Positions 2,268-29,521 of a stretch of DNA of 41,879 nucleotides are shown piece after piece. The position numbers were made by a program, and so were the translations under genes. Position 1 is the first letter of the stretch. Every line of letters starts with the position of its first letter. The stretch spans positions 1-41,879 of the forward strand of contig CARQUZ010000005.1 of assembly GCA_949051565.1 (NCBI GenBank), in the 5' to 3' direction. The DNA is from an uncultured Lachnospiraceae bacterium (GTDB lineage Bacteria > Bacillota > Clostridia > Lachnospirales > Lachnospiraceae). Under the pieces are notes generated by a model. That model searched no databases. It saw only the letters and a program-made list of their open reading frames with translations, and had not been told where the DNA came from.

Positions 2268-2304
2268 ATAAAAAAGGCAGCAAACCTTTTTCGATTTGCT
2301 GCCT
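2268..2304 (-). terminator. Rho-independent terminator downstream of the GH85 gene (bidirectional-capable hairpin)
   Basis: 10-bp stem AGGCAGCAAA/TTTGCTGCCT (2275-2304) with a U-run on the minus strand (A-run 2270-2275 on +). Confidence 0.65.
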
Positions 2305-2350
2305 TTGTGTTTGGCTTTGATATAACATTATGCGTTGGCGGCTCAAATGA

Positions 2351-5230
2351 TTACTCCATCGCTGCTTCTAATCCATATACTTCAACTTCATAGATACGTG
2401 CTGCGCTGTCGCTTCCCTGAGTTGGTTTATTTATGACAAGCTTTACAAACTGTGCGTTTACAGGTGCAAATGCATCATGTGTAGTTCCCGCTGTATTTCT
2501 GGTCACACTTCTTACTTCTGTAAATGCCGCTCCATCTTCACTGACATAAATTGCATAGGACTTTGTATTCATATCTGCGCTCTCGCCACCTGCCTCAGCA
2601 TGGTAGACATCTACTGCACTTACGGTCTTGATACTTCCAAGATCCAATGTGATCTCATGTGGTGCACTTCCTGTTGCACACCATTTCTTTGTAATGTCAC
2701 CGTCCACTGCAAACTGAGGAGCCTCATTGTCATTGACATAGGTATCTGCCTCTGTGCCAGCGCCCTGTGAAAGCAAAACAAGTCCTTCCGATGCATTCTC
2801 AGTAATTACAATATAATTCTCCATAAAAGCTTCGCTGCTACCAGACTCATTTTCTGCCTTGATAGAAACAGAATATACGCCTTCATTAGCATAAGTTACA
2901 GATACACTGTTACCTTCTGCGGACTCTTTGTCTGCACCTGTAAGAGTCCATGTTACCTTCTGTGTATTCTGTGAACACAAACTGTTCAATGTAATTGTTT
3001 CACCAGGTGCTGCCAATGTGATATCTGCTGCAAACGCTGCCTTCGGGATGCTGTTGTCTGGCCAATCCATTGTCACCTGTGCACCAGTTCCTTCTACTAA
3101 CAGAGCATTGACTGGAACTACCTCAAAAACAGATTTGTTTGTGTCATCTGTTCGTGGCAAAGTATTGATATAGAAGCTGTTTGTATTAGATACACCCAAC
3201 AAAGACTTTGTCTGGTCCTGATTAATCCGATAAACTTCATAATAATCGGTCTGTACATCTGAATCCCATGCAAGACGCACACCTGCATACATACTATCTT
3301 CATCAAACTCACTGTCGAGTACACGCACATTGCTCACTGTCGCTGTTTCCTCGGCTGCTTGCTCGATCATACTGATATTGCCCAAACGCAACTGTAAACC
3401 ACTTGCATCTGCATCTGCTGTGATCTTGTAAGAGATTGTCTTGATGGTCTTTCCTGCTAGTCCTGCGGTGTCATAAGACACTGTTGTCCACTCATCCTTA
3501 ACTTTCTTGTCACCTTCTAGAACAAGCTCTGAGCCATCATCGAGCGTAAGTACTGCATCTAATGCAATTTCTGCCCCTTTTGCACGCGCTGTTGTGGTGA
3601 ATGTCATGCTGTCTGTTGCGGGAAGACTTGCACTATAGAGCTTGATTACTGACTCTACACCTTGCTTCACTGCACCACGCAAAATCATGCTGTTTCCGCC
3701 ATAGTAAGCATCTCCCACATCTAGATCAGCAGTCAGATTATTGCCTGTGCCATTCTCAATAATATAACGATATGTAGGCAATACATCAGAAATGCTGCGA
3801 TTGTTCCAATCTAACATACTGATAAGCTCACCATTTTTATAGAACCCATAGCCATTTCCTGTAGAGAAGTTGGTCACAAAAGGAAGTTGTGTAATCGCTG
3901 TTCGCTCCACAACATAAGTAGACACGCCCCTCCACTGAGTATCATCTGACATCTCCATCTGTACAGAGGGATCTCCTTTGGAATTCACCCACAACTTATT
4001 TTCCTGTTTCCAGAAATCTTGTACAGTACCTGCTGAAAAATAAGCCCAGCTTGGACAGTAAAGTCCTAGAGATGTATAGGTTCCTCCCTCTGGATTCTCA
4101 AACAAATTCCATCTAATCGGAGTTGCATAACCATTGCTCTGCAAATCAACTCCTGCATATAAATCATAAGGATCTATGTTCTTTTCCTGTGCAAGCTGTG
4201 CAGAGGACTTTAACAATTCTTCTGGCGCTAGTTTTTCCGTTGTCCACCAGAAATTCAAGAACATCTCATCTGCAACAGAAGCACCTTCCTCATTTTGCAT
4301 AAAAGCTACATTTTTCTCTGTCAATGCATTTTGCCAATCCATCTCGCCATCCACTGTCATTGAATCATAGTAAACCAATTCTAATTCAGGAGCTTTTTCC
4401 TTAAAGTAGGACAAGAACTCTTGCATCCGCACAGCGTGATCTGCTGTTAGGGGCTCTGTGTCTGTTCCTTCTGTCTCCTGGTTGATAAACCATCCATCAA
4501 ACCCATATGTATTGGCAACCTCGATCAACTTGTCAACTACTGGATAGCTACCATCCTCTTTCTTTGTCAAGAGATCCTCTAACCACTGCATCTTTCCGCC
4601 ATGAGCTGCCTGTGGCATAAACACAGTTCCAATTACCTTTACACCATTCTTGTGTCCTGCGTCCACCACATCTGCACTAGGTGCCACAATCAACCCTTCT
4701 CCTGAAGAGCCGCCCCAATATACCAATAGATCTACATACTGCCAGTATGAAAATGTGTTGGCATTAAACTTGTTTAGACCATGTGGAGAGTTTCCGCTCG
4801 TACTTCCATTCATAATGGAAATAGACATGACCTTTGTATCCTTATTTTGAGTTGAATTTACTGGCTCTAGATCTGCAATGTCCACGCGTGATGCAAGCGG
4901 CACACTACTCACGTTAAAAATGAGATCTTCATCCTTGCTGGAATCCCACTCCAGCAACTGTGCTGGAAACCAATAAGATGACTCTGGTTGACGATTCATG
5001 GTCAACTCTTTGTTGTCATTCTCCTCTGTCACAGAATATGCCGCTGCTGGTGCTTCTGTCTGTTCTGGTGCTGGTTCTGATGTAGGTTCAGATTCTACTA
5101 CAGCAGTCTGTGTGGATGCTGGCTCCTGCTCTACTTTTTGTTCCCCATTGCCGCACGCAACAAGCCCTGTCATCATAGTCGCTGCCAAAATAATACTGAT
5201 AATTTTCTTTCCATATTCTTTCTTGCGCAT
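2351..5230 (-). CDS. Secreted lipoprotein endo-beta-N-acetylglucosaminidase (GH85) with C-terminal Ig-like and F5/8 type C (discoidin) carbohydrate-binding domains
   Basis: Lipobox LVAC after an N-terminal signal peptide. GH85 core motifs are present (FNANTFSYWQYVDLLVYWGG...GHKNGVKVIGTVF). A discoidin-like C-terminus (DGDITKKWCATG...). RBS GGAAAGGAAAC. Confidence 0.75.
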   Translation of the reverse strand: MRKKEYGKKIISIILAATMMTGLVACGNGEQKVEQEPASTQTAVVESEPTSEPAPEQTEAPAAAYSVTEENDNKELTMNRQPESSYWFPAQLLEWDSSKDEDLIFNVSSVPLASRVDIADLEPVNSTQNKDTKVMSISIMNGSTSGNSPHGLNKFNANTFSYWQYVDLLVYWGGSSGEGLIVAPSADVVDAGHKNGVKVIGTVFMPQAAHGGKMQWLEDLLTKKEDGSYPVVDKLIEVANTYGFDGWFINQETEGTDTEPLTADHAVRMQEFLSYFKEKAPELELVYYDSMTVDGEMDWQNALTEKNVAFMQNEEGASVADEMFLNFWWTTEKLAPEELLKSSAQLAQEKNIDPYDLYAGVDLQSNGYATPIRWNLFENPEGGTYTSLGLYCPSWAYFSAGTVQDFWKQENKLWVNSKGDPSVQMEMSDDTQWRGVSTYVVERTAITQLPFVTNFSTGNGYGFYKNGELISMLDWNNRSISDVLPTYRYIIENGTGNNLTADLDVGDAYYGGNSMILRGAVKQGVESVIKLYSASLPATDSMTFTTTARAKGAEIALDAVLTLDDGSELVLEGDKKVKDEWTTVSYDTAGLAGKTIKTISYKITADADASGLQLRLGNISMIEQAAEETATVSNVRVLDSEFDEDSMYAGVRLAWDSDVQTDYYEVYRINQDQTKSLLGVSNTNSFYINTLPRTDDTNKSVFEVVPVNALLVEGTGAQVTMDWPDNSIPKAAFAADITLAAPGETITLNSLCSQNTQKVTWTLTGADKESAEGNSVSVTYANEGVYSVSIKAENESGSSEAFMENYIVITENASEGLVLLSQGAGTEADTYVNDNEAPQFAVDGDITKKWCATGSAPHEITLDLGSIKTVSAVDVYHAEAGGESADMNTKSYAIYVSEDGAAFTEVRSVTRNTAGTTHDAFAPVNAQFVKLVINKPTQGSDSAARIYEVEVYGLEAAME

Positions 5231-5352
5231 AAAGTTTCCTTTCCACTTTGAAAGTATTTACTTGTAAAAAATCCTTGATCTTTCAACCTTCTTTTTATGG
5301 TAAGGCGGCCATGTAAAACAGACCACCTTGCCAGATTTCTTATTATATCTTT

Positions 5353-8300
5353 TTAGCGAAGCAAAACTGTCACAACTTCATATGGCTTTAATACAACATC
5401 AATCACATTTCCTGTTACAGTTGTCTCCTCCTGTGTCTCTTCTAGTAAATTACAGATATATGCTTTTTCAAATGGTGCATGCACTGTCAATTTTGTCTTA
5501 GTATATGAATTCTCTGACTCATACATACGAATGACTGTTCCATTTCCATCCTCTGCCTTTTTAATCGTCTCAAGAATGACATTTGCATGTGCAACAGATG
5601 CAAATGAGAATGTTTCCTTAGAGGCGGTTCCCAACTCAGCAACTAATGGCTGATTGAGCTTGTATGCTTCCTCTACAGTACCTGCCTGACGCCATCCTTC
5701 TGCATGTGGATAAAGTGCATAGGTAAAATCATGCTCTTCCTGGTCTGTAGTTGGATTGGGTTCTATACCAGATTTAATCAAAGTCAATGCCATATTGGAA
5801 TCCTTTACAGAATGTCCATACTTACAATCATTGAGTAGAGAAACTCCATAGTGGCCTTCTGAGAGATCCATCCATTTCTGTCCACAACTCTCAAAACGCG
5901 CCACATCCCAACTTGTATTTTGATGCGTTTTTCTAGTCAGATTTCCAAACTGTACATCAAAGGTTGCCTCATCTGTATGCACTGCTATCGGGAAATGTAC
6001 CTTTAATAGTGTCTGATGCTCTTTCCAGTCCACATGAGTCACAAACTCTATCCGACGGCTGTTCGCATAGAATATAATCTTCTGCTCGATTGTTGACTTA
6101 GATGCCTTGCGTGTTATCTCTAGCACCGCGCGCACAGGACCTACCTCTGTCCATTCCATATGCTCTACTTGATCCACATCCCAGAACTTCTCTGTATAGT
6201 AAATGTCAATATCCCAGTTGTCAAAATAAATAGGCTTATCCTCATACATGCGAATCAAATTTCCACGTTCTTTCTCCTGTATGATCTCCCTATCATTTTC
6301 CTTGTCATAAATGCTTGTAAACAGTCCCTGTTCATCCAGTTTTATGGTGTAGAATGGCGTTTCTAGTGCAAGGTTTCCAGTCAATACAAATGGGCAATCT
6401 GTATCTGTTGCCTTAGCAGCCGTAAATGATTTGTAACCCTTTGAAGGTACATTCTTCACGTATGCCACACTTCCGTCCTTTGTTTTCTGAACAGGATAGA
6501 TTGTTCCATTCTCATCCTGAAGAGCCTCTCCGTCAAAGTCTCCGAGATTGACAATGTCTTCTCTTTCTTTTCCTATTGTATTAAAGATCGTGATTGCATC
6601 TCCAGTCTGTGCGATTGCCTTTCTACGTTGTGTAGACAAATCTGCTATCTGCTCTGCAAGCTGGCTATACTCTTCCTTTGTCACATCATAAACTTCTTTG
6701 ATAGATGAACCTGGCAAAATATCATGGAACTGATTTAGCAGCACGACTCTCCACATTGCCTCTAGATCCTTTGTTGGATAGTCTACTGTCTGCTCTGCCA
6801 AAACAGATAGTAATTCCAGATCCATCAATCCCAGCTCGGATTTTCGATTAGAACGTTTGTTTCGTGCCATAGAGGTCAATGTCCCTCTGTGATACTCAAA
6901 GTAAAACTCACCTTCCCACACTGGAAGACGTCTACTTTGTCCAACACGTTCATTCAGCTCGTCAAAGAATGTGCGCGCAAACTCTTGGCGAACGGTCGGG
7001 ATACCTTTCACACCCTTTTCCATACGAATAGATGTCTCTAACATTTCTCTGGTTGGACCACCACCGCCATCTCCATAGCCATAAGAGATTAAGATATCAT
7101 TGTTGAGATCTTTATTTTGATAACGCATCCATCCACCCATAATAGCGTCTGGATGAAGCATGCCATTATATGTCGTGAAGAAATTCTTGATTGGTTGCTC
7201 CACGCCCAATGTGGTAATCAAATGTGTCAATACCTCTGATCCATCGATACCTCTCCACATCATTGTATCATATGGTATCTTATTAAACTGATTCCACGCA
7301 AGTTTGGTGGTCATAAAATAATCAATTCCACACTTTTTCATGATCTGTGGAAGTGCTCCCGAATAACCAAACACATCTGGCAACCACAAAATACGATTGT
7401 CCACACCAAACTCTTCGCGGAAAAAGCGCTTGCCATACATAAACTGGCGAACCAATGATTCTCCTGAGGTCAGATTGCAGTCTGCCTCCACCCACATACC
7501 ACCTTCTGGCTCCCAGCGCTGTTGTTCGATACGTTCTTTCACTTTCTCATAAAGGTCTGGGTAGCGCTCTTTCAAAAAGGCATAAAGCTGTGGTTGGCTT
7601 GACATAAACTTGTAATTGGGATATTCTTCCATCAGCTTTAATACTGTCGCAAAGCTACGTGCAACTTTTTCCCTTGTCTGCTCTACTGTCCACCACCATG
7701 CAACATCAATGTGTGTATGTCCAATACAAGTTGCAATCACATCCTTATATCCTGCCAAATCAGAATACAATGCCCGATCAATATAGTTAGACGCCTCTTC
7801 CATTGTAGAATAAAACGCATCCGAATATGGAGTTCTCAAATCCAGGAAATTCACTGTGGTATTCAAGATTTCCTGAATATCCTTTCGATTCTTATCGTCT
7901 TCCTCCATTCTAGAAAATGCTGCGAGTGGAACCCACAAATCATAGTACAACTTCTCGATTTTGTCGTCAATCTCACGCATTTCCACAATCAGATTAAACT
8001 CGTCATGCAACGTTCCAGTATAGGCTTGAAGTCCAATCTCCAAAACTTCCCCTTCTTTTGCTTGAGCGCGCAAAAAGACATCTTTGTGGTTCATATCAAT
8101 TCCTTGGATGGCTTCTCCGTTTACAAACAGTAAGAACTGTGGATTTTTCGCATCATCCCACTCGTCAATCTGTGTGCGTACATGAAGCCACATCCGTTTT
8201 CCATCTAGCTCTTTAGGCACTTGATATGTTGTCTTAAACCAGTAATGACGATCCTTTCCATACCAGTGCATATTTTTGCTATAAAAGTCTTGCCACGGTG

Positions 8301-8439
8301 CAGAATCCGCCTCTGCCTCTTCAGGTTTAATATAATTGCCCTCTTTATACTTCAAGTGGTCAATTGGAAATTTTTGTTTTACCTTTAACTTTTTTAATTC
8401 TTCACAAATAACATGAACTCTCTTGTCCAAAAAATACAT
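5353..8439 (-). CDS. GH38 alpha-mannosidase (cytoplasmic)
   Basis: GH38 signature HTHIDVAWWW and length consistent with bacterial GH38. The ORF extends to 8460 (MNDKEAK-MYFLD), but a strong RBS AAGGAGG sits 5 nt before the second ATG, so the preferred start is 8439. Confidence 0.85.
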   Translation of the reverse strand: MYFLDKRVHVICEELKKLKVKQKFPIDHLKYKEGNYIKPEEAEADSAPWQDFYSKNMHWYGKDRHYWFKTTYQVPKELDGKRMWLHVRTQIDEWDDAKNPQFLLFVNGEAIQGIDMNHKDVFLRAQAKEGEVLEIGLQAYTGTLHDEFNLIVEMREIDDKIEKLYYDLWVPLAAFSRMEEDDKNRKDIQEILNTTVNFLDLRTPYSDAFYSTMEEASNYIDRALYSDLAGYKDVIATCIGHTHIDVAWWWTVEQTREKVARSFATVLKLMEEYPNYKFMSSQPQLYAFLKERYPDLYEKVKERIEQQRWEPEGGMWVEADCNLTSGESLVRQFMYGKRFFREEFGVDNRILWLPDVFGYSGALPQIMKKCGIDYFMTTKLAWNQFNKIPYDTMMWRGIDGSEVLTHLITTLGVEQPIKNFFTTYNGMLHPDAIMGGWMRYQNKDLNNDILISYGYGDGGGGPTREMLETSIRMEKGVKGIPTVRQEFARTFFDELNERVGQSRRLPVWEGEFYFEYHRGTLTSMARNKRSNRKSELGLMDLELLSVLAEQTVDYPTKDLEAMWRVVLLNQFHDILPGSSIKEVYDVTKEEYSQLAEQIADLSTQRRKAIAQTGDAITIFNTIGKEREDIVNLGDFDGEALQDENGTIYPVQKTKDGSVAYVKNVPSKGYKSFTAAKATDTDCPFVLTGNLALETPFYTIKLDEQGLFTSIYDKENDREIIQEKERGNLIRMYEDKPIYFDNWDIDIYYTEKFWDVDQVEHMEWTEVGPVRAVLEITRKASKSTIEQKIIFYANSRRIEFVTHVDWKEHQTLLKVHFPIAVHTDEATFDVQFGNLTRKTHQNTSWDVARFESCGQKWMDLSEGHYGVSLLNDCKYGHSVKDSNMALTLIKSGIEPNPTTDQEEHDFTYALYPHAEGWRQAGTVEEAYKLNQPLVAELGTASKETFSFASVAHANVILETIKKAEDGNGTVIRMYESENSYTKTKLTVHAPFEKAYICNLLEETQEETTVTGNVIDVVLKPYEVVTVLLR

Positions 8440-8592
8440 TTTTGCCTCCTTGTCATTCATTTACCGCCTTCTGACAGACGGATTTTTAAACATATTCTGA
8501 AGTAATACTCCTCACTTCGTTTTTCCTCATAGTATTTATGCCCATATCCGCATATTATGATAACATTTTATTTTATAGAAACTTTTCATGCG

Positions 8593-8649
8593 GTAAAAAG
8601 GCCGCCGCAAAATTAGCCAAAGCTTTCACTTTTTCTTTTTGCGGCAGCC
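8593..8649 (-). terminator. Hairpin (13-bp GC-rich stem) with a U-run between the GH130 and GH38 genes. It is an intra-locus terminator or attenuator
   Basis: GGCCGCCGCAAAA...TTTTGCGGCAGCC (1 mismatch). An A-run on + at 8595-8599 gives a U-run on the minus-strand transcript. Confidence 0.55.
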
Positions 8650-8678
8650 ATCCTGTATGAAATCAACAATACCAATGT

Positions 8679-9659
8679 TTATTCCATATATGCCATTAAA
8701 CGGTCTACTGTAGTAAATGCAAGCCCTGTCACTGTGTCTGCACATCCATAGTAGATGGCAATCCTTCCAGTCGCCGCATCTGTCAGCGCCGCGCAAGGGA
8801 AGACTACATTAGGTACATCTCCTACACACTCATATAACTCATGAGGTCCTAAAATATAATTTTTGGTTCTCTTTTTCACTTTCCACGGCTCTTCCAAATC
8901 CAACAAAGCACATCCCATTCGGTAAACAAATCCGTTACAGGTATTGATTACGCCATGATAAATCAGAAGCCAGCCTTCATCTGTCTCAATAGGAACACTC
9001 CCTGCACCAATCTTAGTACACTGCCATGCAGATGCATCTCCTTTGATCGTTCCCATCACATACCGATGACATCCCCAATATTTCAAGTCTGGACTTTCAC
9101 TCAGGAAAATATCTCCAAATGGTGTGTGTCCATTATCACTAGGACGACTTAGCATATAATAGTTACCATTGATCTTGCGTGGAAATAGTACCCCATTGCG
9201 ATTAAATGGCAAAAATGCATTTTCCAATTGATAAAATTCCTTAAAATCAAAGGTATACCCTACCCCAATCGTGGGATATTCGTGATATCCATTGCACCAT
9301 GTGATATAATATCTGTCCTCTATAAAACAGACTCTTGGATCATAGCGAAAGTCTCTTTTTGCCACTTCAGGGTGTGCGCCCTGAAATGTAAGTGGTTCAT
9401 CCGAAATGTTCCAGCTAATCCCATCCTTGCTAAATCCTGCAAAGATATCCATGCTGATGGACTTGCTGTCACAGCGGAACACGCCCGCAAAACCATCTTC
9501 AAAGGGGACTACTGCACTGTTAAAAATACTGTTTGAGTTTTTCGTTGCAAATCTTTCGATAATCGGATTTGCATTGTAGCGCCATACAGGCAGTTTTTCC
9601 GAATCTGTCGGTTCCTGCCAAGGCAGATTGGGCAAATCCCTTCCGATTATTTTTGCCAT
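8679..9659 (-). CDS. GH130 family glycoside phosphorylase, likely beta-1,4-mannosyl-N-acetylglucosamine phosphorylase
   Basis: 326-aa 5-bladed beta-propeller-like protein with no signal peptide. Its size and context (between the ABC transporter and GH38/GH85) match known N-glycan loci. RBS GAGGTGG. The family call is from memory of GH130 features, not a search. Confidence 0.6.
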
Positions 9660-9686
9660 CTTATCGCCACCTCTGTCACTTATTAT

Positions 9687-11201
9687 TTATTTACCCAGAA
9701 ACTCATCAACTTGTTTCTGTGCTGCATCAACGATATCTTGCCAGCCAGCCTTCATCAACTCATCTTTGATCTGAGGAACTGCCACTGCAGGGTCCTGCAC
9801 ACCTGTCATCACCTCACTGCGGTAGCGCAGCCAAATCTCACGACAGTTTGCAAGTTGGTCAGACACTTCTGTTGTATCAAATGTAAATCCAAGCATAATA
9901 GAAGAAACTGCCTGCTCATTCAATGCCTTTACTTCATCCCACTGATTAATCTCATCTGTGTCAAGTGTTGTTACTGTGAAGAATGTTGCCTGTGTATATC
10001 CTGCCATTGCCCACTCATTGTTGATCTTGTGAACTTTGCCATCTGCGGTATACTCAAAGTTTACGCCTTCCTCACCATAGTAGAACATATCACGCAACTT
10101 TGTATCTACGTTCACTAAATCCAAAAGCTGTAAACATTTTTCTGGATACTTGCTATTTGTGGAAACCATGTTCAATGATCCACGTACAGTCTCATTAGAA
10201 AGAATAGTGTCGCCTAACTTCTGCACTACTACTTCTTTGCCCATCTGAGGTCCCCATGCAGTTATACCTGCTGACTCCCAACCTTGAGCAACACGCCACA
10301 TATTATATACACGACCTTCTGTCAATGTGGAAGCATCAGGATTGATGATGCCCTTTTGATACCACTCATGCAATGTCTGCAACTGCTCAAAAATGTCTGG
10401 CTGCTCTAATACAAAGCACACCTTTGCATCCTTGTCATCATACCGAACACCGAGGATCTGTGTACCAGCACCAATTTGATCGTATACGTCAAAGATATAG
10501 TATACACCATCATTCTTGATATAAACTGGATAATCATTCTTATCTGCTTTCAACTTCTCAAAAGTCTCTGTCATAGAATCAAGCTCAATCAATGATGAAA
10601 TATCTAGACTGTACTCATCTACCAATTCCTTATCCCAGATTGAATAGTTGGTAATAGAACTGTCCTTGTACGTAGGAACACCATAAATTCTGTCTTTTAC
10701 ACGTACACCATCCCAGTATTTTTCAGGCATTAACTCTACTAATCCTGGCATATTGGTTGGTATCATGTCAGTGATGTCACAGTATGCGCCCAGATTGATA
10801 TCTGCAACATAATTATTACCATTTCCAAAAATAATATCATAGGGTTCGTTGGTGCTGACAATGATATTGCGGCGATTATCCCAATCACCCCAAGGAATAA
10901 CTTCCATCTCAAGGTTTACGCCAATCTTTTCTCCGATGTACTCGTTTACTTTCGCAATCCATGTATCATAATTTGTTGGCATACCATTTCCGATTGTAAC
11001 CCACTTTAAGTTTACAATCTCTCCGCTACTCGTACCCTGAGAAGATTGCGCCCCCCCGTCATTTGAGGATGTAGTGGAATTGTCACTTGTTCCAGTACTA
11101 TTTGCGTTGTTGTTGGTGTCTTTGTTTCCTCCACAACCAGACAAAGTTCCCAGAACCATTGCTGTTGCTGCACTTACTGCCAAAACTTTCTTAAACTTCA
11201 T
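9687..11201 (-). CDS. Lipoprotein extracellular solute-binding protein of a carbohydrate ABC transporter (large family-1 SBP, LplA/YtcQ-like)
   Basis: Signal peptide plus lipobox LSGCGG, a low-complexity linker, and ~500 aa. RBS AAGGAGG. Confidence 0.8.
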   Translation of the reverse strand: MKFKKVLAVSAATAMVLGTLSGCGGNKDTNNNANSTGTSDNSTTSSNDGGAQSSQGTSSGEIVNLKWVTIGNGMPTNYDTWIAKVNEYIGEKIGVNLEMEVIPWGDWDNRRNIIVSTNEPYDIIFGNGNNYVADINLGAYCDITDMIPTNMPGLVELMPEKYWDGVRVKDRIYGVPTYKDSSITNYSIWDKELVDEYSLDISSLIELDSMTETFEKLKADKNDYPVYIKNDGVYYIFDVYDQIGAGTQILGVRYDDKDAKVCFVLEQPDIFEQLQTLHEWYQKGIINPDASTLTEGRVYNMWRVAQGWESAGITAWGPQMGKEVVVQKLGDTILSNETVRGSLNMVSTNSKYPEKCLQLLDLVNVDTKLRDMFYYGEEGVNFEYTADGKVHKINNEWAMAGYTQATFFTVTTLDTDEINQWDEVKALNEQAVSSIMLGFTFDTTEVSDQLANCREIWLRYRSEVMTGVQDPAVAVPQIKDELMKAGWQDIVDAAQKQVDEFLGK

Positions 11202-11272
11202 AATGATCCTCCTTTATAAAATACTAGTCATTGGCACAGCCTACAAACTCCCGCAGAGTTGCCTGCTGTTTT

Positions 11273-12190
11273 TTATTCCTTTACCGATCCAATTGTCAGA
11301 CCGGAAATGAAATACTTCTGGAAAAATGGATAGGTACATGCAATTGGTACGATGATAACAATTGCAATTGCCATACGAACACTCTCTGTTGGCATGGATA
11401 ACTTATACTGTTGCAAAGAGAGTCCACCATATGGATTGTTTGCAATATACTCGATGTTCTTCTGAATATTATTCAATAAGGACTGGAGTGTCTGCAAATT
11501 CTTATCTTGTATGTACAAAGAAGCCTGGAACCAATCATTCCAATATCCAAACGCCGCAAACATACCGATCGTTGCGATAACTGGCTTAGAGATTGGCATA
11601 ACAATCTGGGACCAAATACGAAACTGTCCTGCACCGTCAATCTTTGCAGATTCAATGATAGAATCTGGAACCGTTGTTCTGAAGAAAGTTCGGCAAATTG
11701 TAACACTGAAGGAAGAACATGCAAGAGGCAATATCAATGCCCAAACAGTATTGCTCAACCCTAAAATATTGTTTACTACTACATAGCTTGCTAACATTCC
11801 GCCATTAAATACCATTGGAACGAAAATCAACCATGTATACAATTTTTTCAAAGCAAAATTTCTTCTAGAAACAACGTATCCCATTGATGTATCCAATGCG
11901 ATCGCAATCAATGTACCAACAATTGTCACGAACACAGACATAAACGCTGCACGTAAAATCATCATGCGCTCATTCCACAAAAATTTGTAAGCAGAACCAG
12001 AAAGAACAGATGGGAAAAGTTGATATCCATTTGTGCGCAGTGCTTCCTCATCTGTGATAGAAATTGAAAATACAAACAATAGAGGAATAACACACATTAC
12101 TGCTAAAATCAGAAACACAACGTTAAATATAATGTTGGTAGAGGTTTTAATCTGATTTAAGGATTGACCGCTTTCTTCTCTTTTTGCCAC
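11273..12190 (-). CDS. Carbohydrate ABC transporter permease (LplC/YtcP-like)
   Basis: Six predicted TM segments and an EAA loop (ESAKIDGAGQFRIWSQIVMP). Likely a GTG start at 12190 with RBS AGGGAGG. Confidence 0.8.
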   Translation of the reverse strand: MAKREESGQSLNQIKTSTNIIFNVVFLILAVMCVIPLLFVFSISITDEEALRTNGYQLFPSVLSGSAYKFLWNERMMILRAAFMSVFVTIVGTLIAIALDTSMGYVVSRRNFALKKLYTWLIFVPMVFNGGMLASYVVVNNILGLSNTVWALILPLACSSFSVTICRTFFRTTVPDSIIESAKIDGAGQFRIWSQIVMPISKPVIATIGMFAAFGYWNDWFQASLYIQDKNLQTLQSLLNNIQKNIEYIANNPYGGLSLQQYKLSMPTESVRMAIAIVIIVPIACTYPFFQKYFISGLTIGSVKE

Positions 12191-12206
12191 ACTAACACCT
12201 CCCTAA

Positions 12207-13190
12207 TTATATAATCCTGTTTTCATTGTCTATTTTACTTACAACCCAGTTTGCTAACAAGATCGTTCCACAGCTACAAATTGCCTGGAAGAATGATGCC
12301 GCAGCAGTCTGACCAATCGGCGCTGTAGACTGAATTGCGTTGTAAATATATGTATCGAATGTAGAAACTGTGGTGTACAAAGACTGTGGAATTCGTCCAG
12401 TTACTTGATAGAATAGACCAAAGTCGGAGTTGAAAATCTTACCACAATCTAGTATCAACATCATGATAAACACAGGCTTGATAGCTGGAAGTGTGATATG
12501 TCTTGCCTGTTGCTTTTTTGTCGCACCGTCCATAACTGCTGCTTCATAGAGTGATGGATCAATACCCGTGATACTTGCCAGGTACAATACCATTCCGTAT
12601 CCCATACCTTTCCACGTATTTAGGAAAATCAGGATAAGTGGCCAATATTTCTTCTCCTGGTACCACATGATACGTTCCCCGCCAAGGGATGTAATGATTC
12701 CATTGATATATCCTCTCTCTGGTGTCAACAGCGCATACACGAAATAGCTGACAACAACCCATGACATAAAGTAAGGAAGGAACATCATCGTCTGGTAAAC
12801 CTTTGAACCTCTCTTGTTGCGCATGCTGCTAAGCATCAATGCGCCTCCCACTGCAACGCTTGCACTGATAATAATGAATGCAATGTTGTAGAGAATTGTG
12901 TTCCTAAGCAGCATTAGGAACGAATTGGACGTAAAGAAATAGGTAAAATTCTTAAATCCCGCCCAATCACTGTGCAATAAGTTGTAAATAAAACCATGTC
13001 CGCCAGGCGCCAATTTGTACACCTTAAATGCAATAATGACACCAAACATTGGCAGATAGCAAAATACTAGAAACCATAGTAAAGTAGGCAGTGAAAGCAA
13101 AAACAGCTCCGTGTCATCTTTAGACCATCGTTTCCTCTTGGGTTTTACGCCGGAAGTATTTCCTCCGTCGAGCGTATTGTTCTTTCCCAT
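12207..13190 (-). CDS. Carbohydrate ABC transporter permease (LplB/YteP-like)
   Basis: TM-rich with an EAA loop (EAAVMDGATKKQQARHITLPAIKP). RBS GAAGGAGG. Confidence 0.8.
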   Translation of the reverse strand: MGKNNTLDGGNTSGVKPKRKRWSKDDTELFLLSLPTLLWFLVFCYLPMFGVIIAFKVYKLAPGGHGFIYNLLHSDWAGFKNFTYFFTSNSFLMLLRNTILYNIAFIIISASVAVGGALMLSSMRNKRGSKVYQTMMFLPYFMSWVVVSYFVYALLTPERGYINGIITSLGGERIMWYQEKKYWPLILIFLNTWKGMGYGMVLYLASITGIDPSLYEAAVMDGATKKQQARHITLPAIKPVFIMMLILDCGKIFNSDFGLFYQVTGRIPQSLYTTVSTFDTYIYNAIQSTAPIGQTAAASFFQAICSCGTILLANWVVSKIDNENRII

Positions 13191-13340
13191 TATTTGACCT
13201 CCTTCTTTATTTTTGTTAAATTTATATTAACATTAGTTAAGTAATAGGTCAACTTATTTTGGCATTTTCATCACTATATCCAACTTTACATTGTATTTTT
13301 AGTATATTTTTACGTACTGTATACATTTTTAATCCTGTTG

Positions 13341-13374
13341 TGTAAAGTTTGTATTTACAAACATTAACTTTACT
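13341..13374. promoter_or_regulatory. Nested palindrome TGTAAAGTT-TGTATTTACAAACA-AACTTTACA in the divergent promoter region between the ABC operon and lacI. Candidate LacI-family operator
   Basis: Seen directly: outer 9-bp arms TGTAAAGTT/AACTTTACA and inner arms GTTTGTA/TACAAAC. Its location in the 370-bp divergent intergenic region fits an operator. Confidence 0.35.
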
Positions 13375-13602
13375 TCTATTTTTCCCTGTTTTCCCATTCA
13401 AAAAGGAGCAAAAATAGGCATATTTACTTCTTTTTGCACCATATTCCAGAGTATTTATATATTTTGTGCCAAAAAACCTCTCAATATTGGTTCTCTTTTT
13501 ATTAACATTTGTAAACTTCTTTATTGTCTTTTTTTCTTTAGCATGCTATACTAAACTATATGATTGAATGAAGTGACATGTATTGCACAAGTAGGAGGCG
13601 CT

Positions 13603-14628
13603 ATGGAAAAAATCACTATGAAAGATATCGCGGATGCTCTTAATATCTCCCGTGTCACGGTTAGCAAGGCATTTAACCACCAAGCTGGCGTGTCTGATTC
13701 TCTTCGCGACCTGATCTTTGAGAAGGCCAAAGAGCTCGGCTATGCCAAGATTCCTTATCAGGCAATCTCACAGCCGCAGCCCGTGCAATCGGCTCACCGC
13801 ACGGTTTCTTTGATTGTTTCGCGACCCGATTCCGCCTTTTTCTGGACCAGCATTATTCATCGTATGGCTCAGGAACTTTCCAATTATAATATCAACCTCC
13901 TATATACATATGTTCCTTCTACCCACACAAAACCGTTTAATCTGCCTTCTATTCTATTAAACAATGGTGTGGATGGCATCGTCGTACTGAATGTGTACGA
14001 TCCTGAAATTTTGAATATTATCAATCAGCTTTCTCTTCCTAAAGTCTTTCTCGACACTATCCCTTCTTTGCCCAACCGACAGTTAAGTGGCGACTTACTC
14101 TTAATTGAAGGGTACTGTACAGAAGCTGACATCACAGAAACGCTCATTCGCAATGGTCATAAAAACATTGGATTTCTAGGTGATATCAACTATGCGCAAA
14201 CCAATATGGAACGTTATCTAGGATACTGTGATTGTATGGAACGGCATGGCCTTGCCATCAAACCAGAGCACTGTCTAACTGGAAATATTGATATTTTTTC
14301 TTATGGCAAAGAACTTAATTCCTTTTTGGACAGCCTGGCCAATTGGCCTAGTGCATTTGTGTGTGTCAGTGACTATGTGGCACATTTTGTACAACTTTAT
14401 CTAGATGAAAATGCCCAGCGTCTGCCACACCCTGTAATCCTGACCGGATTTGACAATGCAGTGGAGTATACCAACGTTACAGGGCGTATTATTACTGCCA
14501 ATGTTCCGACTGGTCTGCTTGGAAAGCGTCTAGCTATGCAACTTCTATTTCGCACAGAGCATCCTGACGCACCTTATGAGCTTACCTTTATCAATCCCCC
14601 GATTGTCATTCCTTATGACTCTCCTTAA
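13603..14628 (+). CDS. LacI-family transcriptional regulator, likely repressor of the adjacent N-glycan locus
   Basis: N-terminal HTH (MKDIADALNISRVTVSKAFN) and a periplasmic-binding-fold C-terminal domain. RBS AGGAGG precedes the ATG at 13603. The ORF track's 13564 start lacks an RBS. Confidence 0.85.
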   Translation: MEKITMKDIADALNISRVTVSKAFNHQAGVSDSLRDLIFEKAKELGYAKIPYQAISQPQPVQSAHRTVSLIVSRPDSAFFWTSIIHRMAQELSNYNINLLYTYVPSTHTKPFNLPSILLNNGVDGIVVLNVYDPEILNIINQLSLPKVFLDTIPSLPNRQLSGDLLLIEGYCTEADITETLIRNGHKNIGFLGDINYAQTNMERYLGYCDCMERHGLAIKPEHCLTGNIDIFSYGKELNSFLDSLANWPSAFVCVSDYVAHFVQLYLDENAQRLPHPVILTGFDNAVEYTNVTGRIITANVPTGLLGKRLAMQLLFRTEHPDAPYELTFINPPIVIPYDSP

Positions 14629-16060
14629 AAGGAGGTAAAATAGCCTCCACGTCCTTTTGAGCGGGCGTATCAAGCAGACTTCCATCCGCACTAAAACGTG
14701 AGCCGTGACAAGGACAATCCCAACTTTGTTCCTCCTTATTCCACACTAATTTGCACCCCATATGAGAACAGCGTTTTGTAGATTTTGTCAACATCCCTTG
14801 GATCAATCCTTTTGTGCTCTCTCCAATATCAATACACAAATTTTGAATACCTGCACACACTAGAAAACGCTGAGGCGTAAAAACAGCCTCATACATATTG
14901 TGAATACCGCAAATCTGATCGCTTAGGACAGATGCCGCCACCATCGCGGATGTCATTCCCCACTTCTGAAATCCTGTGGCAACATACCAATAGGGACGAA
15001 ATACCGAATACCTGCCAATAAATGGAATCCGGTCATGTGGCATACAATCTTGTGCCGACCAGCAAAAAACTTCTGTACTGTGTGGATAATAGCGTTGTGC
15101 CATCTGTCGCAGATATGTGTATCCTTCTGCCTTTTGCTCTGCATTTGGACAACTATGTTTTCCTGTTCTGTGCGATCCTCCTCCCATAAGAAGCAATCCA
15201 TCTGCACTTCTAAATGATAATCCATCTTTGTCCATACTATAATATTGTCCTGACAGGCGCTGCGGAATATCTTCTCCTTCTAAAGCTAACACATAGCTTC
15301 TTTTTTGATGTTGCCTCAAAAAATAAAATCCTGGAATATTCACAAATGGATAATGTGTCGCAAAGATAATATGGTCTGCTGTAATTGTGCCCTTATGCTC
15401 CTGCACTGAATCTTCCTTATCTTGGCTTATCTCCTCTTTGCTCTCGTACTCAATCGCATGCTCCTTTACAGACAACACTTTTGTGTGTTCATAAATCGTT
15501 AGCTTTTTTGCTAGTGCGCGCATAAACTCCAGTGGATGAAATTGTGCCTGTTGACGAAAGCACACAGCACCTGCTATCGCAAACGGAAGCTCCTCTAGTT
15601 TGTTTCCTCTTACTAAATGCGCGCGGATGCCTAATTTTCTAGCAGTGTCTGCTTCTTTTTCTAATCGTTTTACTTTTGTCTGGTCTGTGGTATACAGATA
15701 GGAAGGTATTCGCTCAAAATGACATGCAATCCCTTCTTCCCATATTAACTCCTCATAAAAATTAATGGCGTCCTCATTTGCCATTGCATATCCGCACGCC
15801 CTATCCTTTCCAGCTCTTCTTACCATATTCTGATAGAGAAATCCATGTTGACTTGTAATTTTTGCCGTAGTATTGCCTGTTTGTCCACTGGCAAGCTCCT
15901 GCGCTTCTAGTACAATAACCTGCTGCCCTTTTTTCTGCAAAAAATACGCAGTAAGAAGCCCTGTCATTCCCCCACCAATCACAACATTTTGTACATGAAA
16001 ATCACTCTGTAGAATCTTCTGTCTTGGTATCTGCACCTGCTGCTTCCATAATGACATCAT
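14606..16060 (-). CDS. FAD-dependent oxidoreductase fused to a C-terminal Rieske [2Fe-2S] domain (YhfW-like)
   Basis: Rossmann FAD motif VVIGGGMTGL. Rieske motifs CSHMGC...CPCHGS. RBS AGGAGG. Overlaps the lacI 3' end convergently by 23 bp. Confidence 0.8.
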   Translation of the reverse strand: MMSLWKQQVQIPRQKILQSDFHVQNVVIGGGMTGLLTAYFLQKKGQQVIVLEAQELASGQTGNTTAKITSQHGFLYQNMVRRAGKDRACGYAMANEDAINFYEELIWEEGIACHFERIPSYLYTTDQTKVKRLEKEADTARKLGIRAHLVRGNKLEELPFAIAGAVCFRQQAQFHPLEFMRALAKKLTIYEHTKVLSVKEHAIEYESKEEISQDKEDSVQEHKGTITADHIIFATHYPFVNIPGFYFLRQHQKRSYVLALEGEDIPQRLSGQYYSMDKDGLSFRSADGLLLMGGGSHRTGKHSCPNAEQKAEGYTYLRQMAQRYYPHSTEVFCWSAQDCMPHDRIPFIGRYSVFRPYWYVATGFQKWGMTSAMVAASVLSDQICGIHNMYEAVFTPQRFLVCAGIQNLCIDIGESTKGLIQGMLTKSTKRCSHMGCKLVWNKEEQSWDCPCHGSRFSADGSLLDTPAQKDVEAILPPFKESHKE

Positions 16061-16254: not shown

Positions 16255-16325
16255 GCAGATATAGTTCATTGGTAGAATGCTAGCTTCCCAAGCTGGAGAG
16301 GCGGGTTCGATTCCCGTTATCTGCT
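16255..16325 (+). tRNA. tRNA-Gly (anticodon CCC). CCA not encoded
   Basis: Manual cloverleaf: acceptor GCAGATA/TATCTGC, D-arm GTTC-ATTGGTA-GAAT, anticodon stem CTAGC/GCTGG with loop TTCCCAA, T-arm GCGGG-TTCGATT-CCCGT, discriminator T. Confidence 0.85.
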
Positions 16326-20184: not shown

Positions 20185-20365
20185 CAAAACAATAGAAAAT
20201 CCGCTGTATTCTGGCAGAATAAGCGGATTGTATCAGTTCCTTGATAATCAAATCCTCTTATTGTTCGACCTATCTATAATAGTCCCGCTCAGGTTGGCAC
20301 CTTCCACATTGGGGTTGCCGTGGCTTCACAGATCCTTTGTATCTCCACCACTCTGAATAAGAGAT
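20185..20365 (-). ncRNA. SAM-I (S-box) riboswitch with terminator expression platform, in the metK leader
   Basis: Minus-strand aptamer from about 20362 to 20254. It has P1 CTCTTATT/AATAAGAG, GGTGGAGAT, GAAGCCACGGCAACC and GGTGCCAACCTGAGC. Terminator hairpin AATCCGCT...AGCGGATT (20197-20228) with a U-run follows, then the metK RBS. Confidence 0.85.
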
Positions 20366-27811: not shown

Positions 27812-27841
27812 ATATATATTGAAAGGATTTGTTAATGTAAG

Positions 27842-29428: not shown

Positions 29429-29493
29429 GAAAACTACTCCTACTCAAAATTAAACAATATTTACATATTCCTATTTTTTATACTCTTTGCTAA

Positions 29494-29517: not shown

Positions 29518-29521
29518 CGGC

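What the first reader, a model, noticed from the sequence alone, without database searches (positions are those of the whole stretch)
2351..14628. Complete high-mannose N-glycan foraging locus: GH85 ENGase lipoprotein + ABC importer + GH38 + GH130 + LacI repressor
Five co-oriented genes encode a surface-anchored endo-beta-N-acetylglucosaminidase with discoidin CBM, an oligosaccharide SBP with two permeases, a cytoplasmic alpha-mannosidase and a Man-beta-1,4-GlcNAc phosphorylase. A LacI regulator is divergent. This is the architecture described for host-glycoprotein N-glycan utilisation in gut Bifidobacterium and Bacteroides. It would make this organism a degrader of host or dietary glycoproteins. 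A GH125 (alpha-1,6-mannosidase) is not present in the window.
Basis: partly seen in the sequence, partly recalled or inferred. Interest (0 to 1): 0.5.

Follow-up and report, generated by a model that had tools for sequence, protein, structure and literature searches.

The report
Gut Lachnospiraceae N-glycan harvesting gene cluster
This is an intact, repressor-controlled gene cluster that should let an uncultured gut Lachnospiraceae bacterium clip mannose-rich N-glycans off glycoproteins, import them and break them down; it is a well-conserved but ordinary member of a pathway type already predicted for this bacterial family.

Summary
Between 2351 and 14628 there are six (not five) co-oriented minus-strand genes. 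They encode two ABC permeases, an NgtS-like lipoprotein binding protein, a GH130, a GH38 and a GH85 lipoprotein carrying PKD and F5/8-type-C domains. A divergent LacI gene lies upstream. The GH130 is 68% identical to UhgbMP and keeps every residue diagnostic of a beta-1,4 phosphorylase. The GH85 is 47% identical to Endo-A with its N-x-E/Y catalytic residues. The GH38 belongs to the Ams1/Bifidobacterium clade. The binding protein's only solved relatives are pneumococcal NgtS entries (5MLT unattributed); NgtS binds Man1/Man5GlcNAc. At least 23 species-level Lachnospiraceae genomes keep the same six genes in order, often with an added GH20 or a GH42-fold protein. The operator is better described as a conserved 14-bp motif, TTWACAWWTGTWAA, present three times; one copy overlaps the operon's -10 element. 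A conserved terminator-like hairpin follows GH130. A similar locus (Ros-10) was predicted in Roseburia in 2016, so this is a new member of a known kind. All functions are inferred.

The parts
13603..14628 (+). LacI-family transcriptional regulator, 341 aa from the ATG at 13603; the listed ORF starts at the TTG at 13564
   Evidence: Pfam LacI HTH plus Peripla_BP_1/3 domains. Orthologues 70-77% identical (55% in two distant loci) lie upstream on the opposite strand in 16 related loci; divergence from permease 1 was measured in 8 of them. An AGGAGG ribosome-binding site sits at 13593-13598.
13524..13552 (+). Promoter-like site for the LacI gene (TTGTCT-17-TATACT with an upstream TG)
   Evidence: Consensus scan only. 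It lies directly downstream of operator copy O3.
13502..13515 (+). Operator candidate O3: TTAACATTTGTAAA, a perfect match to TTWACAWWTGTWAA
   Evidence: This copy is a perfect match to the consensus in all 9 distinct related intergenic regions.
13354..13367 (+).
   Evidence: A comparable middle site lies 177-193 nt upstream of the permease ATG in six of nine regions. The 16-mer GTTAATGTTTGTAAAT is shared with L018.
13227..13240 (+). Operator candidate O1 (TTAACATTAGTTAA, 1 mismatch), overlapping the spacer and the -10 element of the operon promoter
   Evidence: AATGTTAA is invariant in 12 aligned promoters.
13206..13219 (+). Second proximal operator-like site O1' (operon-strand TTAACAAAAATAAA, 2 mismatches), 21 bp downstream of O1
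   Evidence: Its TTAACA half-site is near-invariant: TT, AC and A are invariant columns, and the third base is G in L006 and L031.
13224..13252 (-). Operon promoter: TTGACC-17-TAATAT with an extended -10 TG
   Evidence: TTGAC and the -10 region are invariant in the 12-sequence alignment.
12207..13190 (-). ABC permease 1 (327 aa)
   Evidence: Pfam BPD_transp_1. It is 81-94% identical in cassette-bearing relatives.
11273..12190 (-). ABC permease 2 (305 aa)
   Evidence: Pfam BPD_transp_1 (conservation).
9687..11201 (-). Lipoprotein solute-binding protein (504 aa), NgtS-like, with a C-terminal DUF3502
   Evidence: Lipobox LSGC. The PDB hits are 5SWA/5SWB and 5SUO (NgtS; E=7.5e-44 over residues 53-502) plus 5MLT, which was not attributed. 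NgtS binds Man1GlcNAc and Man5GlcNAc (PMC5215778).
8679..9659 (-). Cytoplasmic GH130 beta-1,4-mannoside phosphorylase (326 aa), predicted to act on Man-beta-1,4-GlcNAc
   Evidence: Pfam 236 bits. 68% identical to UhgbMP, PDB 4UDG. D107, Y106, R154, R172, H235, R62 and D308 correspond to UhgbMP D104, Y103, R150, R168, H231, R59 and D304.
8595..8649 (-). Terminator-like hairpin (8649-8600) plus U-run (8599-8595) directly after GH130
   Evidence: Free energy -30.7 kcal/mol, z = -5.0, none of 200 shuffles as stable. The stem GGCTGCCGCAAAA/TTTTGCGGCNGCC is conserved in 10 relatives with variable loops, and stem position 4 shows a T-A / T.G / C-G series.
5353..8460 (-). Cytoplasmic GH38 alpha-mannosidase (1035 aa), Ams1/Bifidobacterium type
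   Evidence: Four GH38 Pfam domains. Best PDB hits are Ams1 (6LZ1, 1e-149) and 7UFR-7UFU (about 1e-122 to 1e-125); streptococcal and enterococcal GH38s reach only 1e-15. 7UFT is a Bifidobacterium GH38 encoded next to a GH85. Motifs HTHID (248-252) and DVFG (362) are present.
2351..5230 (-). Surface lipoprotein GH85 endo-beta-N-acetylglucosaminidase (959 aa): lipobox, Pro/Glu/Thr-rich linker, GH85 catalytic domain, GH85_C, PKD, F5/8 type C (discoidin)
   Evidence: Pfam hits. Lipobox LVAC. 47% identical to Endo-A over the catalytic region, with N250/E252/Y288 aligned to Endo-A positions 171/173/205 of chain 3FHQ_A.
2273..2306 (-). Intrinsic terminator closing the cluster
   Evidence: 14-bp stem followed by a T-run. 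Free energy -22 kcal/mol, z = -5.6.

Best explanation
This is a LacI-controlled Gram-positive polysaccharide-utilisation locus for high-mannose-type N-glycans, in an uncultured gut Lachnospiraceae bacterium. Every enzymatic and regulatory step below is inferred from homology and gene context.

1. The membrane-anchored GH85 lipoprotein is held away from the cell by a flexible linker, and its PKD and discoidin domains may help it dock onto glycoproteins. It cuts the GlcNAc-beta-1,4-GlcNAc core and releases Man(n)GlcNAc.
2. An NgtS-like lipoprotein binding protein captures this glycan and passes it to two permeases. The ATPase is encoded elsewhere, as is usual for this transporter class in Firmicutes.
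3. In the cytoplasm a single Ams1/Bifidobacterium-type GH38 removes the alpha-linked mannoses down to Man-beta-1,4-GlcNAc.
4. The GH130 splits that disaccharide with phosphate into alpha-mannose-1-phosphate and GlcNAc. This saves one ATP compared with hydrolysis.
5. The LacI repressor binds copies of TTWACAWWTGTWAA. One copy overlaps the -10 element of the operon promoter and one flanks its own promoter. It probably releases the DNA when a breakdown product, perhaps Man-GlcNAc, accumulates.
6. A conserved hairpin with a U-run after GH130 probably lowers expression of GH38 and GH85 relative to the transporter and GH130, or separates the two halves transcriptionally.
For: - **Families and catalytic residues.** Pfam scores are far above threshold for all three enzymes. 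GH85 keeps N250/E252/Y288 and is 47% identical to Endo-A. GH130 is 68% identical to UhgbMP and keeps the proton donor, the phosphate-binding R/H pair and the Y/R pair diagnostic of beta-1,4 linkage. GH38 carries the family motifs and groups with Ams1 and the Bifidobacterium GH38s.
- **Transport.** The binding protein matches only three distinct PDB sequences. Two are NgtS (5SWA/5SWB, 5SUO), which binds Man1GlcNAc and Man5GlcNAc and excludes a second reducing-end GlcNAc; 5MLT was not attributed.
- **Localisation.** GH85 and the binding protein have lipoboxes. GH38 and GH130 have no signal sequence.
- **Conservation.** The six genes keep the same order in at least 23 species-level Lachnospiraceae genomes, and a LacI orthologue lies upstream on the opposite strand in 16 related loci.
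- **Regulation.** The motif has 2 hits at up to 1 mismatch in the whole 41.9-kb window, both in this intergenic region, against 0.38 expected. Nine distinct related intergenic regions hold 11 perfect copies, against 0 in 500 composition-matched shuffles. AATGTTAA over the -10 element is invariant.
- **Boundaries.** A strong terminator follows GH85.
- **Literature.** B. longum GH38s remove all alpha-mannose linkages, including the last alpha-1,6 one. GH130 is one of three families that cleave Man-beta-1,4-GlcNAc (PMC10154615).
Against: - No experiment exists for this locus or for any close relative.
- Sequence cannot separate Man-GlcNAc phosphorylases from beta-1,4-mannooligosaccharide phosphorylases. 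Both fall in one sequence cluster and the enzymes accept several acceptors (PMC7660257). The second-best structural match is the mannooligosaccharide phosphorylase RaMP2.
- GH85 glycan preference varies within the family and is only guessed here from the similarity to Endo-A.
- Whether one GH38 handles alpha-1,2, alpha-1,3 and alpha-1,6 linkages is extrapolated from enzymes about 30% identical.
- The Trp386 platform of NgtS appears to align with a Tyr in this protein (the numbering offset is my inference).
- The internal hairpin means LacI control of GH38 and GH85 is not established. A promoter-like site downstream of it (8597-8570) is not conserved in relatives.
- The operator consensus was derived from the same sequences used to count it.
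Confidence: 0.8

Rival explanations
1. The locus degrades N-glycans, but the preferred substrate is not host high-mannose glycan. It could instead be dietary or microbial glycoprotein (yeast, plant or soybean high-mannose), or hybrid or trimmed complex glycans. The GH85 would then have a broader or different specificity than Endo-A.
For: GH85 specificities differ widely within the family. Relatives insert a cytoplasmic GH20 and/or a GH42-fold protein between GH130 and GH38, which suggests that some imported glycans carry GlcNAc or Gal caps. The discoidin (F5/8 type C) domain has no assigned ligand.
Against: The window version has no GH20, galactosidase, sialidase or fucosidase, so only mannose-capped glycans could be fully consumed. 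The closest characterised GH85 is Endo-A.
Confidence: 0.12
2. The transporter and GH130 half serves beta-mannan or beta-mannooligosaccharide use, as with RaMP2 of Ruminococcus albus. GH38 and GH85 would be a separately expressed neighbour module.
For: RaMP2 is the second-best structural match, at 2.7e-140. Sequence does not resolve the acceptor. A conserved terminator-like hairpin separates GH130 from GH38 and GH85.
Against: There is no mannanase (GH26, GH5, GH113), no GH36, no epimerase and no esterase in the window. The binding protein is an NgtS homologue. GH130, GH38 and GH85 stay adjacent in all cassette-bearing relatives, and some relatives have no gap at all between GH130 and GH38 (L017, L058, L066).
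Confidence: 0.05
3. The GH85 acts mainly as a host-modulating deglycosylase, for example on immunoglobulins or mucosal glycoproteins, rather than for nutrition.
For: Secreted or surface endoglycosidases of pathogens have such roles; EndoS is cited, and EndoD contributes to virulence.
Against: The GH85 is tightly and conservatively linked to an importer and two cytoplasmic catabolic enzymes under a sugar-type repressor.
Confidence: 0.03

Closest known systems
Ros-10 Gram-positive PUL of Roseburia intestinalis XB6B4 (Sheridan et al. 2016, PMC5320581; a prediction only)
   Same: Same bacterial family (Lachnospiraceae). Same core set of GH85, GH38 and GH130, with an ABC transporter and LacI regulation, predicted to target 'N-linked mucus glycans'. 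MAGs labelled Roseburia carry the same cassette (L030, L037).
   Different: Ros-10 is larger: it also lists GH3, GH125, GH20, CE1, an MFS transporter, two LacI and two NagC regulators. The window locus is a minimal three-enzyme version with one LacI and no GH125 or GH20.
Bifidobacterium longum high-mannose N-glycan system (reviewed in PMC10154615)
   Same: An extracellular GH85 acts on the intact glycan, which is imported by an ABC transporter and demannosylated in the cytoplasm by Ams1-type GH38s. The window GH38 matches the Bifidobacterium GH38 structures 7UFR-7UFU at about 1e-122 to 1e-125.
   Different: As I recall it, B. longum uses two GH38s and a GH5_18 beta-mannosidase that hydrolyses the core. 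Here there is one GH38 and a GH130 that phosphorolyses it. The Bifidobacterium binding protein in L063 is of a different type (SBP_bac_1/8, 463 aa).
Streptococcus pneumoniae EndoD + NgtS-P1-P2 + carbohydrate-processing locus (Robb et al. 2017, PMC5215778)
   Same: A GH85 endoglycosidase, and an NgtS-type lipoprotein binding protein with two permeases that imports Man(n)GlcNAc carrying a single reducing-end GlcNAc.
   Different: In the pneumococcus the genes are scattered over three loci. Surface GH92 trimming is needed before EndoD can act. The GH38 is the alpha-1,3-specific type paired with GH125, and it matches the window GH38 only at 1e-15. There is no GH130.
UhgbMP and BT1033 GH130 phosphorylases of Bacteroidota N-glycan loci
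   Same: 68% identity to UhgbMP, with the catalytic, phosphate-binding and +1-subsite residues all conserved. The predicted reaction is the same: Man-beta-1,4-GlcNAc(-GlcNAc) + Pi gives Man-1-P.
   Different: By my recollection, those enzymes sit in SusC/D-type PULs with GH18 and GH92 enzymes and act in a Gram-negative cell plan. Here the partners are GH85, GH38 and an ABC importer.
Eukaryotic cytosolic free-oligosaccharide pathway (ENGase GH85 + Man2C1/Ams1 GH38); from my own knowledge
   Same: The same two enzyme families act in the same order. The window GH38's best solved relatives are yeast Ams1 structures.
   Different: The eukaryotic pathway is an intracellular quality-control route. 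Here the GH85 is extracellular and the pathway is nutritional, ending in phosphorolysis.

Membership tests
GH85 endo-beta-N-acetylglucosaminidase | Match to the family HMM above the curated threshold | tested here: met
   PF03644 scores 302 bits against a cutoff of 22.2, covering profile positions 8-301 of 302. PF21910 (GH85_C) scores 67 bits.
GH85 endo-beta-N-acetylglucosaminidase | Catalytic N-x-E pair and the conserved Tyr (Endo-A N171, E173, Y205; residue roles from my own knowledge) | tested here: met
   N250, E252 and Y288 align to positions 171, 173 and 205 of chain 3FHQ_A.
GH85 endo-beta-N-acetylglucosaminidase | Hydrolysis of the chitobiose core of N-glycans, and which glycan type is preferred | not testable with these tools
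   Only similarity to Endo-A is available (47% identity over the first 412 aligned columns of the catalytic region).
GH130 beta-1,4-mannoside phosphorylase (meta-node C2 / GH130_2, PMC7660257) | Family HMM, proton-donor Asp, phosphate-binding Arg/His pair, no signal peptide | tested here: met
   PF04041 scores 236 bits. D107, R172 and H235 correspond to UhgbMP D104, R168 and H231. There is no hydrophobic N-terminus.
GH130 beta-1,4-mannoside phosphorylase (meta-node C2 / GH130_2, PMC7660257) | Y/R pair at the +1 subsite, which predicts beta-1,4 linkage (Y103/R150), plus R59 and D304 | tested here: met
   Y106, R154, R62 and D308 are present.
GH130 beta-1,4-mannoside phosphorylase (meta-node C2 / GH130_2, PMC7660257) | GlcNAc rather than Man or Glc as the physiological +1 sugar | not testable with these tools
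   PMC7660257 reports that Man-GlcNAc-acting and mannooligosaccharide-acting enzymes do not separate by sequence. Only the gene context (GH85, NgtS-like binding protein) argues for GlcNAc.
GH38 alpha-mannosidase, Ams1/Man2C1/Bifidobacterium clade | All GH38 domains and the metal-binding and nucleophile motifs | tested here: met
   PF01074, PF09261, PF07748 and PF17677 are all above threshold. The HTHID and DVFG motifs are present (motif roles from my own knowledge).
GH38 alpha-mannosidase, Ams1/Man2C1/Bifidobacterium clade | Closer to the Ams1/Bifidobacterium enzymes than to the streptococcal alpha-1,3-specific GH38s | tested here: met
   6LZ1 at 1e-149 and 7UFS at 2e-125, against 2WYH and 5KBP at about 1e-15. 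7UFT is tied to a Bifidobacterium GH85 locus.
GH38 alpha-mannosidase, Ams1/Man2C1/Bifidobacterium clade | Broad alpha-1,2/1,3/1,6 activity sufficient without GH125 or GH92 | not testable with these tools
   Extrapolated from the B. longum enzymes described in PMC10154615.
NgtS-type N-glycan ABC importer | Lipoprotein binding protein homologous to NgtS, encoded next to two permeases | tested here: met
   E=7.5e-44 over residues 53-502. The PDB hits are the NgtS entries 5SWA/5SWB and 5SUO plus 5MLT, which was not attributed. Lipobox LSGC is present. The two BPD_transp_1 permeases are adjacent.
NgtS-type N-glycan ABC importer | Conservation of the Trp386 platform that stacks on Man-beta-1,4-GlcNAc | tested here: inconclusive
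   The position appears to align with a Tyr. The numbering offset between chain and native protein is my own inference.
LacI-family repressor with palindromic operator | N-terminal HTH plus a periplasmic-binding-protein-like effector domain | tested here: met
   PF00356, PF00532 and PF13377.
LacI-family repressor with palindromic operator | A conserved palindromic site positioned to block the regulated promoter | tested here: met
   TTWACAWWTGTWAA overlaps the -10 element, and a perfect copy lies next to the lacI promoter; both are conserved across species. Binding itself was not tested.
Gram-positive PUL (a co-localised degradative enzyme, transporter and regulator, as I recall the term from Sheridan 2016) | At least one glycan-degrading enzyme, a transport system and a transcriptional regulator encoded together | tested here: met
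   Three GH enzymes, an ABC importer and a LacI gene lie within 12.3 kb.

The most novel reading that the evidence does not exclude
This is a minimal, self-sufficient three-enzyme N-glycan module. One surface GH85, one broad-specificity Ams1-type GH38 and one GH130 phosphorylase would take Man9GlcNAc2-protein all the way to mannose, mannose-1-phosphate and GlcNAc, with no GH92, GH125 or beta-mannosidase. Control would come from a three-operator LacI switch, with a conserved internal attenuator that keeps GH38 and GH85 at a different expression level from the importer. Relatives would then extend the substrate range in a modular way by slotting a GH20 and/or an unclassified GH42-fold enzyme into the same site between GH130 and GH38.
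Probability: 0.4. Interest if true: 0.45.

Novelty: new member of a known kind. Interest (0 to 1): 0.3.

Why it matters
If the locus is functional, a widespread clade of rodent- and other gut-associated Lachnospiraceae would be foragers of high-mannose N-glycans from host or dietary glycoproteins. That niche has mostly been studied in Bacteroides, Bifidobacterium and streptococci. The clade includes the cultured strain A4; a relative of Eubacterium plexicaudatum ASF492 is included too, though its copy looks disrupted.

The compact enzyme set is a tidy experimental system: a GH85, a single Ams1-type GH38 and an ATP-saving GH130. It is also a possible source of glyco-engineering enzymes. The conserved operator motif gives a concrete handle on the regulon.

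It does not change current understanding, because the same family combination was already predicted for Roseburia in 2016.

Tried and rejected
1. My first LacI comparison used a query starting at 13604, which is out of frame. It gave spurious 33-43% identities and a false idea that the effector domain had diverged. One search exposed the error. The in-frame query (13603) gives 70-77% orthologues, and the idea was dropped.
2. I demoted it to a possible auxiliary site.
3. CcpA cre site search (TGWAANCGNTNWCA, up to 1 mismatch): no hit in the locus.
4. Rfam scan of the whole window: nothing in the locus. It found only a SAM riboswitch and a tRNA elsewhere.
5. A secondary promoter for GH38-GH85: a promoter-like site lies downstream of the hairpin in the window (8597-8570), but it is not conserved, and several relatives have only about 40 nt there. 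This is unresolved.
6. A literature search for '7UFR' returned only irrelevant papers. I established the identity of those PDB entries indirectly through the Bifidobacterium locus L063.
7. PMC4461205, the UhgbMP structure paper, is not held. Residue criteria were taken from PMC7660257 instead.
The taxonomy rests on the titles of related records.
9. NCBIfam has no equivalog for any protein of the locus; every hit is far below cutoff.

Full report
**What is there.** The region 2351-14628 holds six co-oriented minus-strand ORFs and one divergent plus-strand ORF. Pfam assigns them as follows:
- 12207-13190 and 11273-12190: ABC permeases (BPD_transp_1).
- 9687-11201: a 504-aa protein with a C-terminal DUF3502.
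- 8679-9659: GH130, 236 bits against a cutoff of 26.
- 5353-8460: GH38, all four domains.
- 2351-5230: GH85 at 302 bits, plus GH85_C, PKD and F5/8 type C domains.
- 13564/13603-14628: a LacI-family regulator.

NCBIfam has no equivalog for any of them, so no curated name exists.

**Localisation.** The GH85 starts MRKKEYGKKIISIILAATMMTGLVAC, which contains a lipobox. A Glu/Pro/Thr/Ala-rich linker of about 50 residues follows. The binding protein has the lipobox LSGC. GH38 and GH130 have no hydrophobic N-terminal segment.

**The enzymes.**
- *GH130.* The best solved relative is UhgbMP (4UDG, E=4e-149, 68% identity over 312 columns), followed by RaMP2 and TM1225. PMC7660257 gives published criteria for GH130 mechanism and linkage, and every diagnostic residue is present: the proton donor D107 (=D104), the phosphate-binding pair R172/H235 (=R168/H231), and the +1-subsite residues R62, Y106, R154 and D308 (=R59, Y103, R150, D304). 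The Y/R pair predicts beta-1,4 specificity. The same paper warns that enzymes acting on Man-GlcNAc and on mannooligosaccharides do not separate by sequence. The choice of GlcNAc as acceptor therefore rests on gene context.
- *GH85.* The closest solved structure is Endo-A (3FHQ, E=2.7e-133; 47% identity over the catalytic region). N250/E252/Y288 align to Endo-A positions 171/173/205 of chain 3FHQ_A.
- *GH38.* It matches yeast Ams1 (6LZ1, 1e-149) and PDB entries 7UFR-7UFU (about 1e-122 to 1e-125). It matches the streptococcal and enterococcal GH38s only at 1e-15. I tied 7UFT to Bifidobacterium: a GH38 encoded near a GH85 in a Bifidobacterium MAG (L063) hits 7UFT at 1888 bits over its full length. 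[quoted passage not shown] This gives a reasonable explanation for the absence of GH125 and GH92, which I confirmed for the whole window.

**The transporter.** The binding protein matches only three distinct PDB sequences. Two are 5SWA/5SWB and 5SUO (E about 1e-43 over nearly the full length). These are NgtS of Streptococcus pneumoniae, which binds Man1GlcNAc and Man5GlcNAc and has no room for a second reducing-end GlcNAc, so it fits the products of a GH85 (PMC5215778). The third, 5MLT, I did not attribute. The Trp386 stacking platform appears to be a Tyr here, which is inconclusive. No ABC ATPase is encoded in the window. In Firmicutes such importers commonly share an MsmK-type ATPase; the MsmK paper is listed among the references of PMC5215778, and the generalisation is my own knowledge.

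**Conservation and taxonomy.** Identical copies of the locus occur on metagenome contigs. A scan of species-representative genomes with the GH85 returned 80 loci. In 23 of them all six genes occur in the same order, at 67-95% amino-acid identity. Nearly all of these are Lachnospiraceae MAGs, many from the mouse gut catalogue, plus the cultured Lachnospiraceae bacterium A4. Nine more loci are cut by contig ends or otherwise incomplete. One of these is Eubacterium plexicaudatum ASF492, where the transporter and GH130 hits are partial or missing. More distant GH85 loci (Clostridium perfringens, Enterococcus, Blautia) lack the cassette. In-frame LacI orthologues, 70-77% identical (55% in two distant loci), lie upstream on the opposite strand in 16 related loci. 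An earlier result of 33-43% identity came from an out-of-frame query of mine and is withdrawn.

Many relatives carry extra genes in the GH130-GH38 gap: a cytoplasmic GH20 at that site in eleven loci, a 720-750-aa protein in eight, and both in two of these. In two further relatives (L006, L031) a GH20 lies at the far end of the locus, beyond LacI. The window has the minimal form.

**Regulation.** Upstream regions of permease 1 from twelve sequences were aligned. They share an invariant TTGAC (-35), an invariant AATGTTAA running into the -10 element (TAATAT, with an extended-10 TG), a near-invariant TTAACA half-site within a conserved GTTRACAAA block 21 bp further on, and the ribosome-binding site. 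The recurring element is a 14-bp imperfect palindrome, TTWACAWWTGTWAA.
- In the window it occurs at 13227-13240 (1 mismatch, over the promoter) and at 13502-13515 (perfect, just upstream of the lacI promoter-like site at 13524-13552).
- These are the only two hits at up to 1 mismatch in 41.9 kb, against 0.38 expected.
- Weaker copies lie at 13354-13367 and 13206-13219.
- In nine distinct intergenic regions there are 11 perfect copies and 34 copies with up to 2 mismatches. Five hundred composition-matched shuffles gave a mean of 0 and 1.96 respectively. The rest of those loci hold 18 copies with up to 2 mismatches in 184 kb.
- Two caveats apply: the consensus was derived from these same sequences, and the sequences are related by descent.

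It may be an auxiliary site, for example for DNA looping. The promoter-proximal and lacI-proximal sites are the better EMSA targets. No cre site and no Rfam element lies in the locus.

**Transcript structure.** A 14-bp-stem terminator follows the GH85 (2306-2273). Unexpectedly, a strong hairpin with a U-run also follows the GH130 stop codon (8649-8595; -30.7 kcal/mol, z = -5.0). Its stem is conserved in ten relatives while the loops vary widely. Stem position 4 shows a T-A, T.G, C-G series, which is evidence that the structure is under selection. Three cassette-type relatives (L017, L058, L066) and the rearranged Roseburia locus L037 have almost no gap there. I read the hairpin as an internal attenuator or terminator that sets different expression levels for the transporter-GH130 half and the GH38-GH85 half. 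Whether GH38 and GH85 are under LacI control is therefore open.

**Mechanism.** All steps are inferred.
1. The surface GH85 releases Man(n)GlcNAc.
2. The NgtS-like ABC system imports it.
3. The GH38 trims it to Man-beta-1,4-GlcNAc.
4. The GH130 converts this with phosphate to mannose-1-phosphate and GlcNAc.
5. LacI is released by a pathway intermediate.

**Rivals.**
- A mannan or mannooligosaccharide role for the transporter-GH130 half is disfavoured, because no mannanase is present and the binding protein is NgtS-like.
- A different glycan source or type remains possible, since GH85 specificities vary and relatives add GH20 and GH42-fold enzymes.
- A non-nutritional deglycosylase role is disfavoured by the tight linkage to catabolic genes.

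**Comparison with known systems and novelty.** The closest described locus is Ros-10 of Roseburia intestinalis XB6B4. [quoted passage not shown] The characterised systems of B. longum, S. pneumoniae and B. thetaiotaomicron each share some parts. None of them combines GH85, an Ams1-type GH38, GH130 and an NgtS-type importer in one unit. I found no biochemical study of a Lachnospiraceae GH85 locus in the held literature. The finding is therefore a well-supported, compact new member of a known kind. It is useful but not surprising.

Noticed in passing
L022:4505-6754, L029:2652-4817, L033:2780-5017 (related loci; absent from the window): A conserved 720-750-aa cytoplasmic protein sits between GH130 and GH20/GH38 in eight relatives. 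It has no Pfam or NCBIfam family above threshold and no PDB sequence hit, and sources label it 'hypothetical' (788 homologues found). An AlphaFold model (pLDDT 69.6, pTM 0.76) matches GH42 beta-galactosidases, an Ignavibacterium beta-1,2-glucosyltransferase and GH164 beta-mannosidase at 10-13% identity (Foldseek E about 1e-19, TM about 0.6). It is a candidate unclassified glycosidase of N-glycan loci.
   Followed up: partly
window 8595-8649 (-): A conserved terminator-like hairpin lies inside the gene cluster, directly after GH130. Pairing is maintained through base changes in relatives. It implies two expression levels or two transcription units.
   Followed up: partly
L007:4728-6692, L010:4740-6725, L029:4838-6688 and eight further relatives: A cytoplasmic GH20 beta-N-acetylhexosaminidase gene is inserted at the GH130-GH38 junction in eleven related loci. 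In L006 and L031 a GH20 lies at the far end of the locus, beyond LacI. This suggests those species import GlcNAc-capped (hybrid-type) glycans.
   Followed up: partly
window 29746-32211 (+): An 821-aa protein has a Major Vault Protein shoulder domain (PF11978, E=1e-20) and a sub-threshold vault repeat. It is a bacterial MVP-like protein of unknown role, located between a chemotaxis receptor gene and mnmG.
   Followed up: no
window ~26000-34000: GC skew changes sign from negative to positive here, gene orientation flips, and mnmG (gidA) lies at 32328-34247. This region is probably close to the replication origin.
   Followed up: no
window 20255-20363 (-) and 16255-16325 (+): A SAM riboswitch (67.8 bits) lies upstream of the S-adenosylmethionine synthetase gene (18948-20132). 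A tRNA gene lies between the oxidoreductase and hydrolase genes. Both are ordinary.
   Followed up: no
window 14606-16060 (-): A FAD-dependent oxidoreductase (DAO) with a C-terminal Rieske 2Fe-2S domain converges on LacI, and the two ORFs overlap by 23 bp. tblastn found it in none of the 80 related loci, so it is not part of the cassette.
   Followed up: partly
window 26570-29428 (+): A sugar-type solute-binding protein gene (SBP_bac_8) is followed immediately by a methyl-accepting chemotaxis protein gene, upstream of a che operon. This may be a binding-protein-coupled chemoreceptor pair.
   Followed up: no
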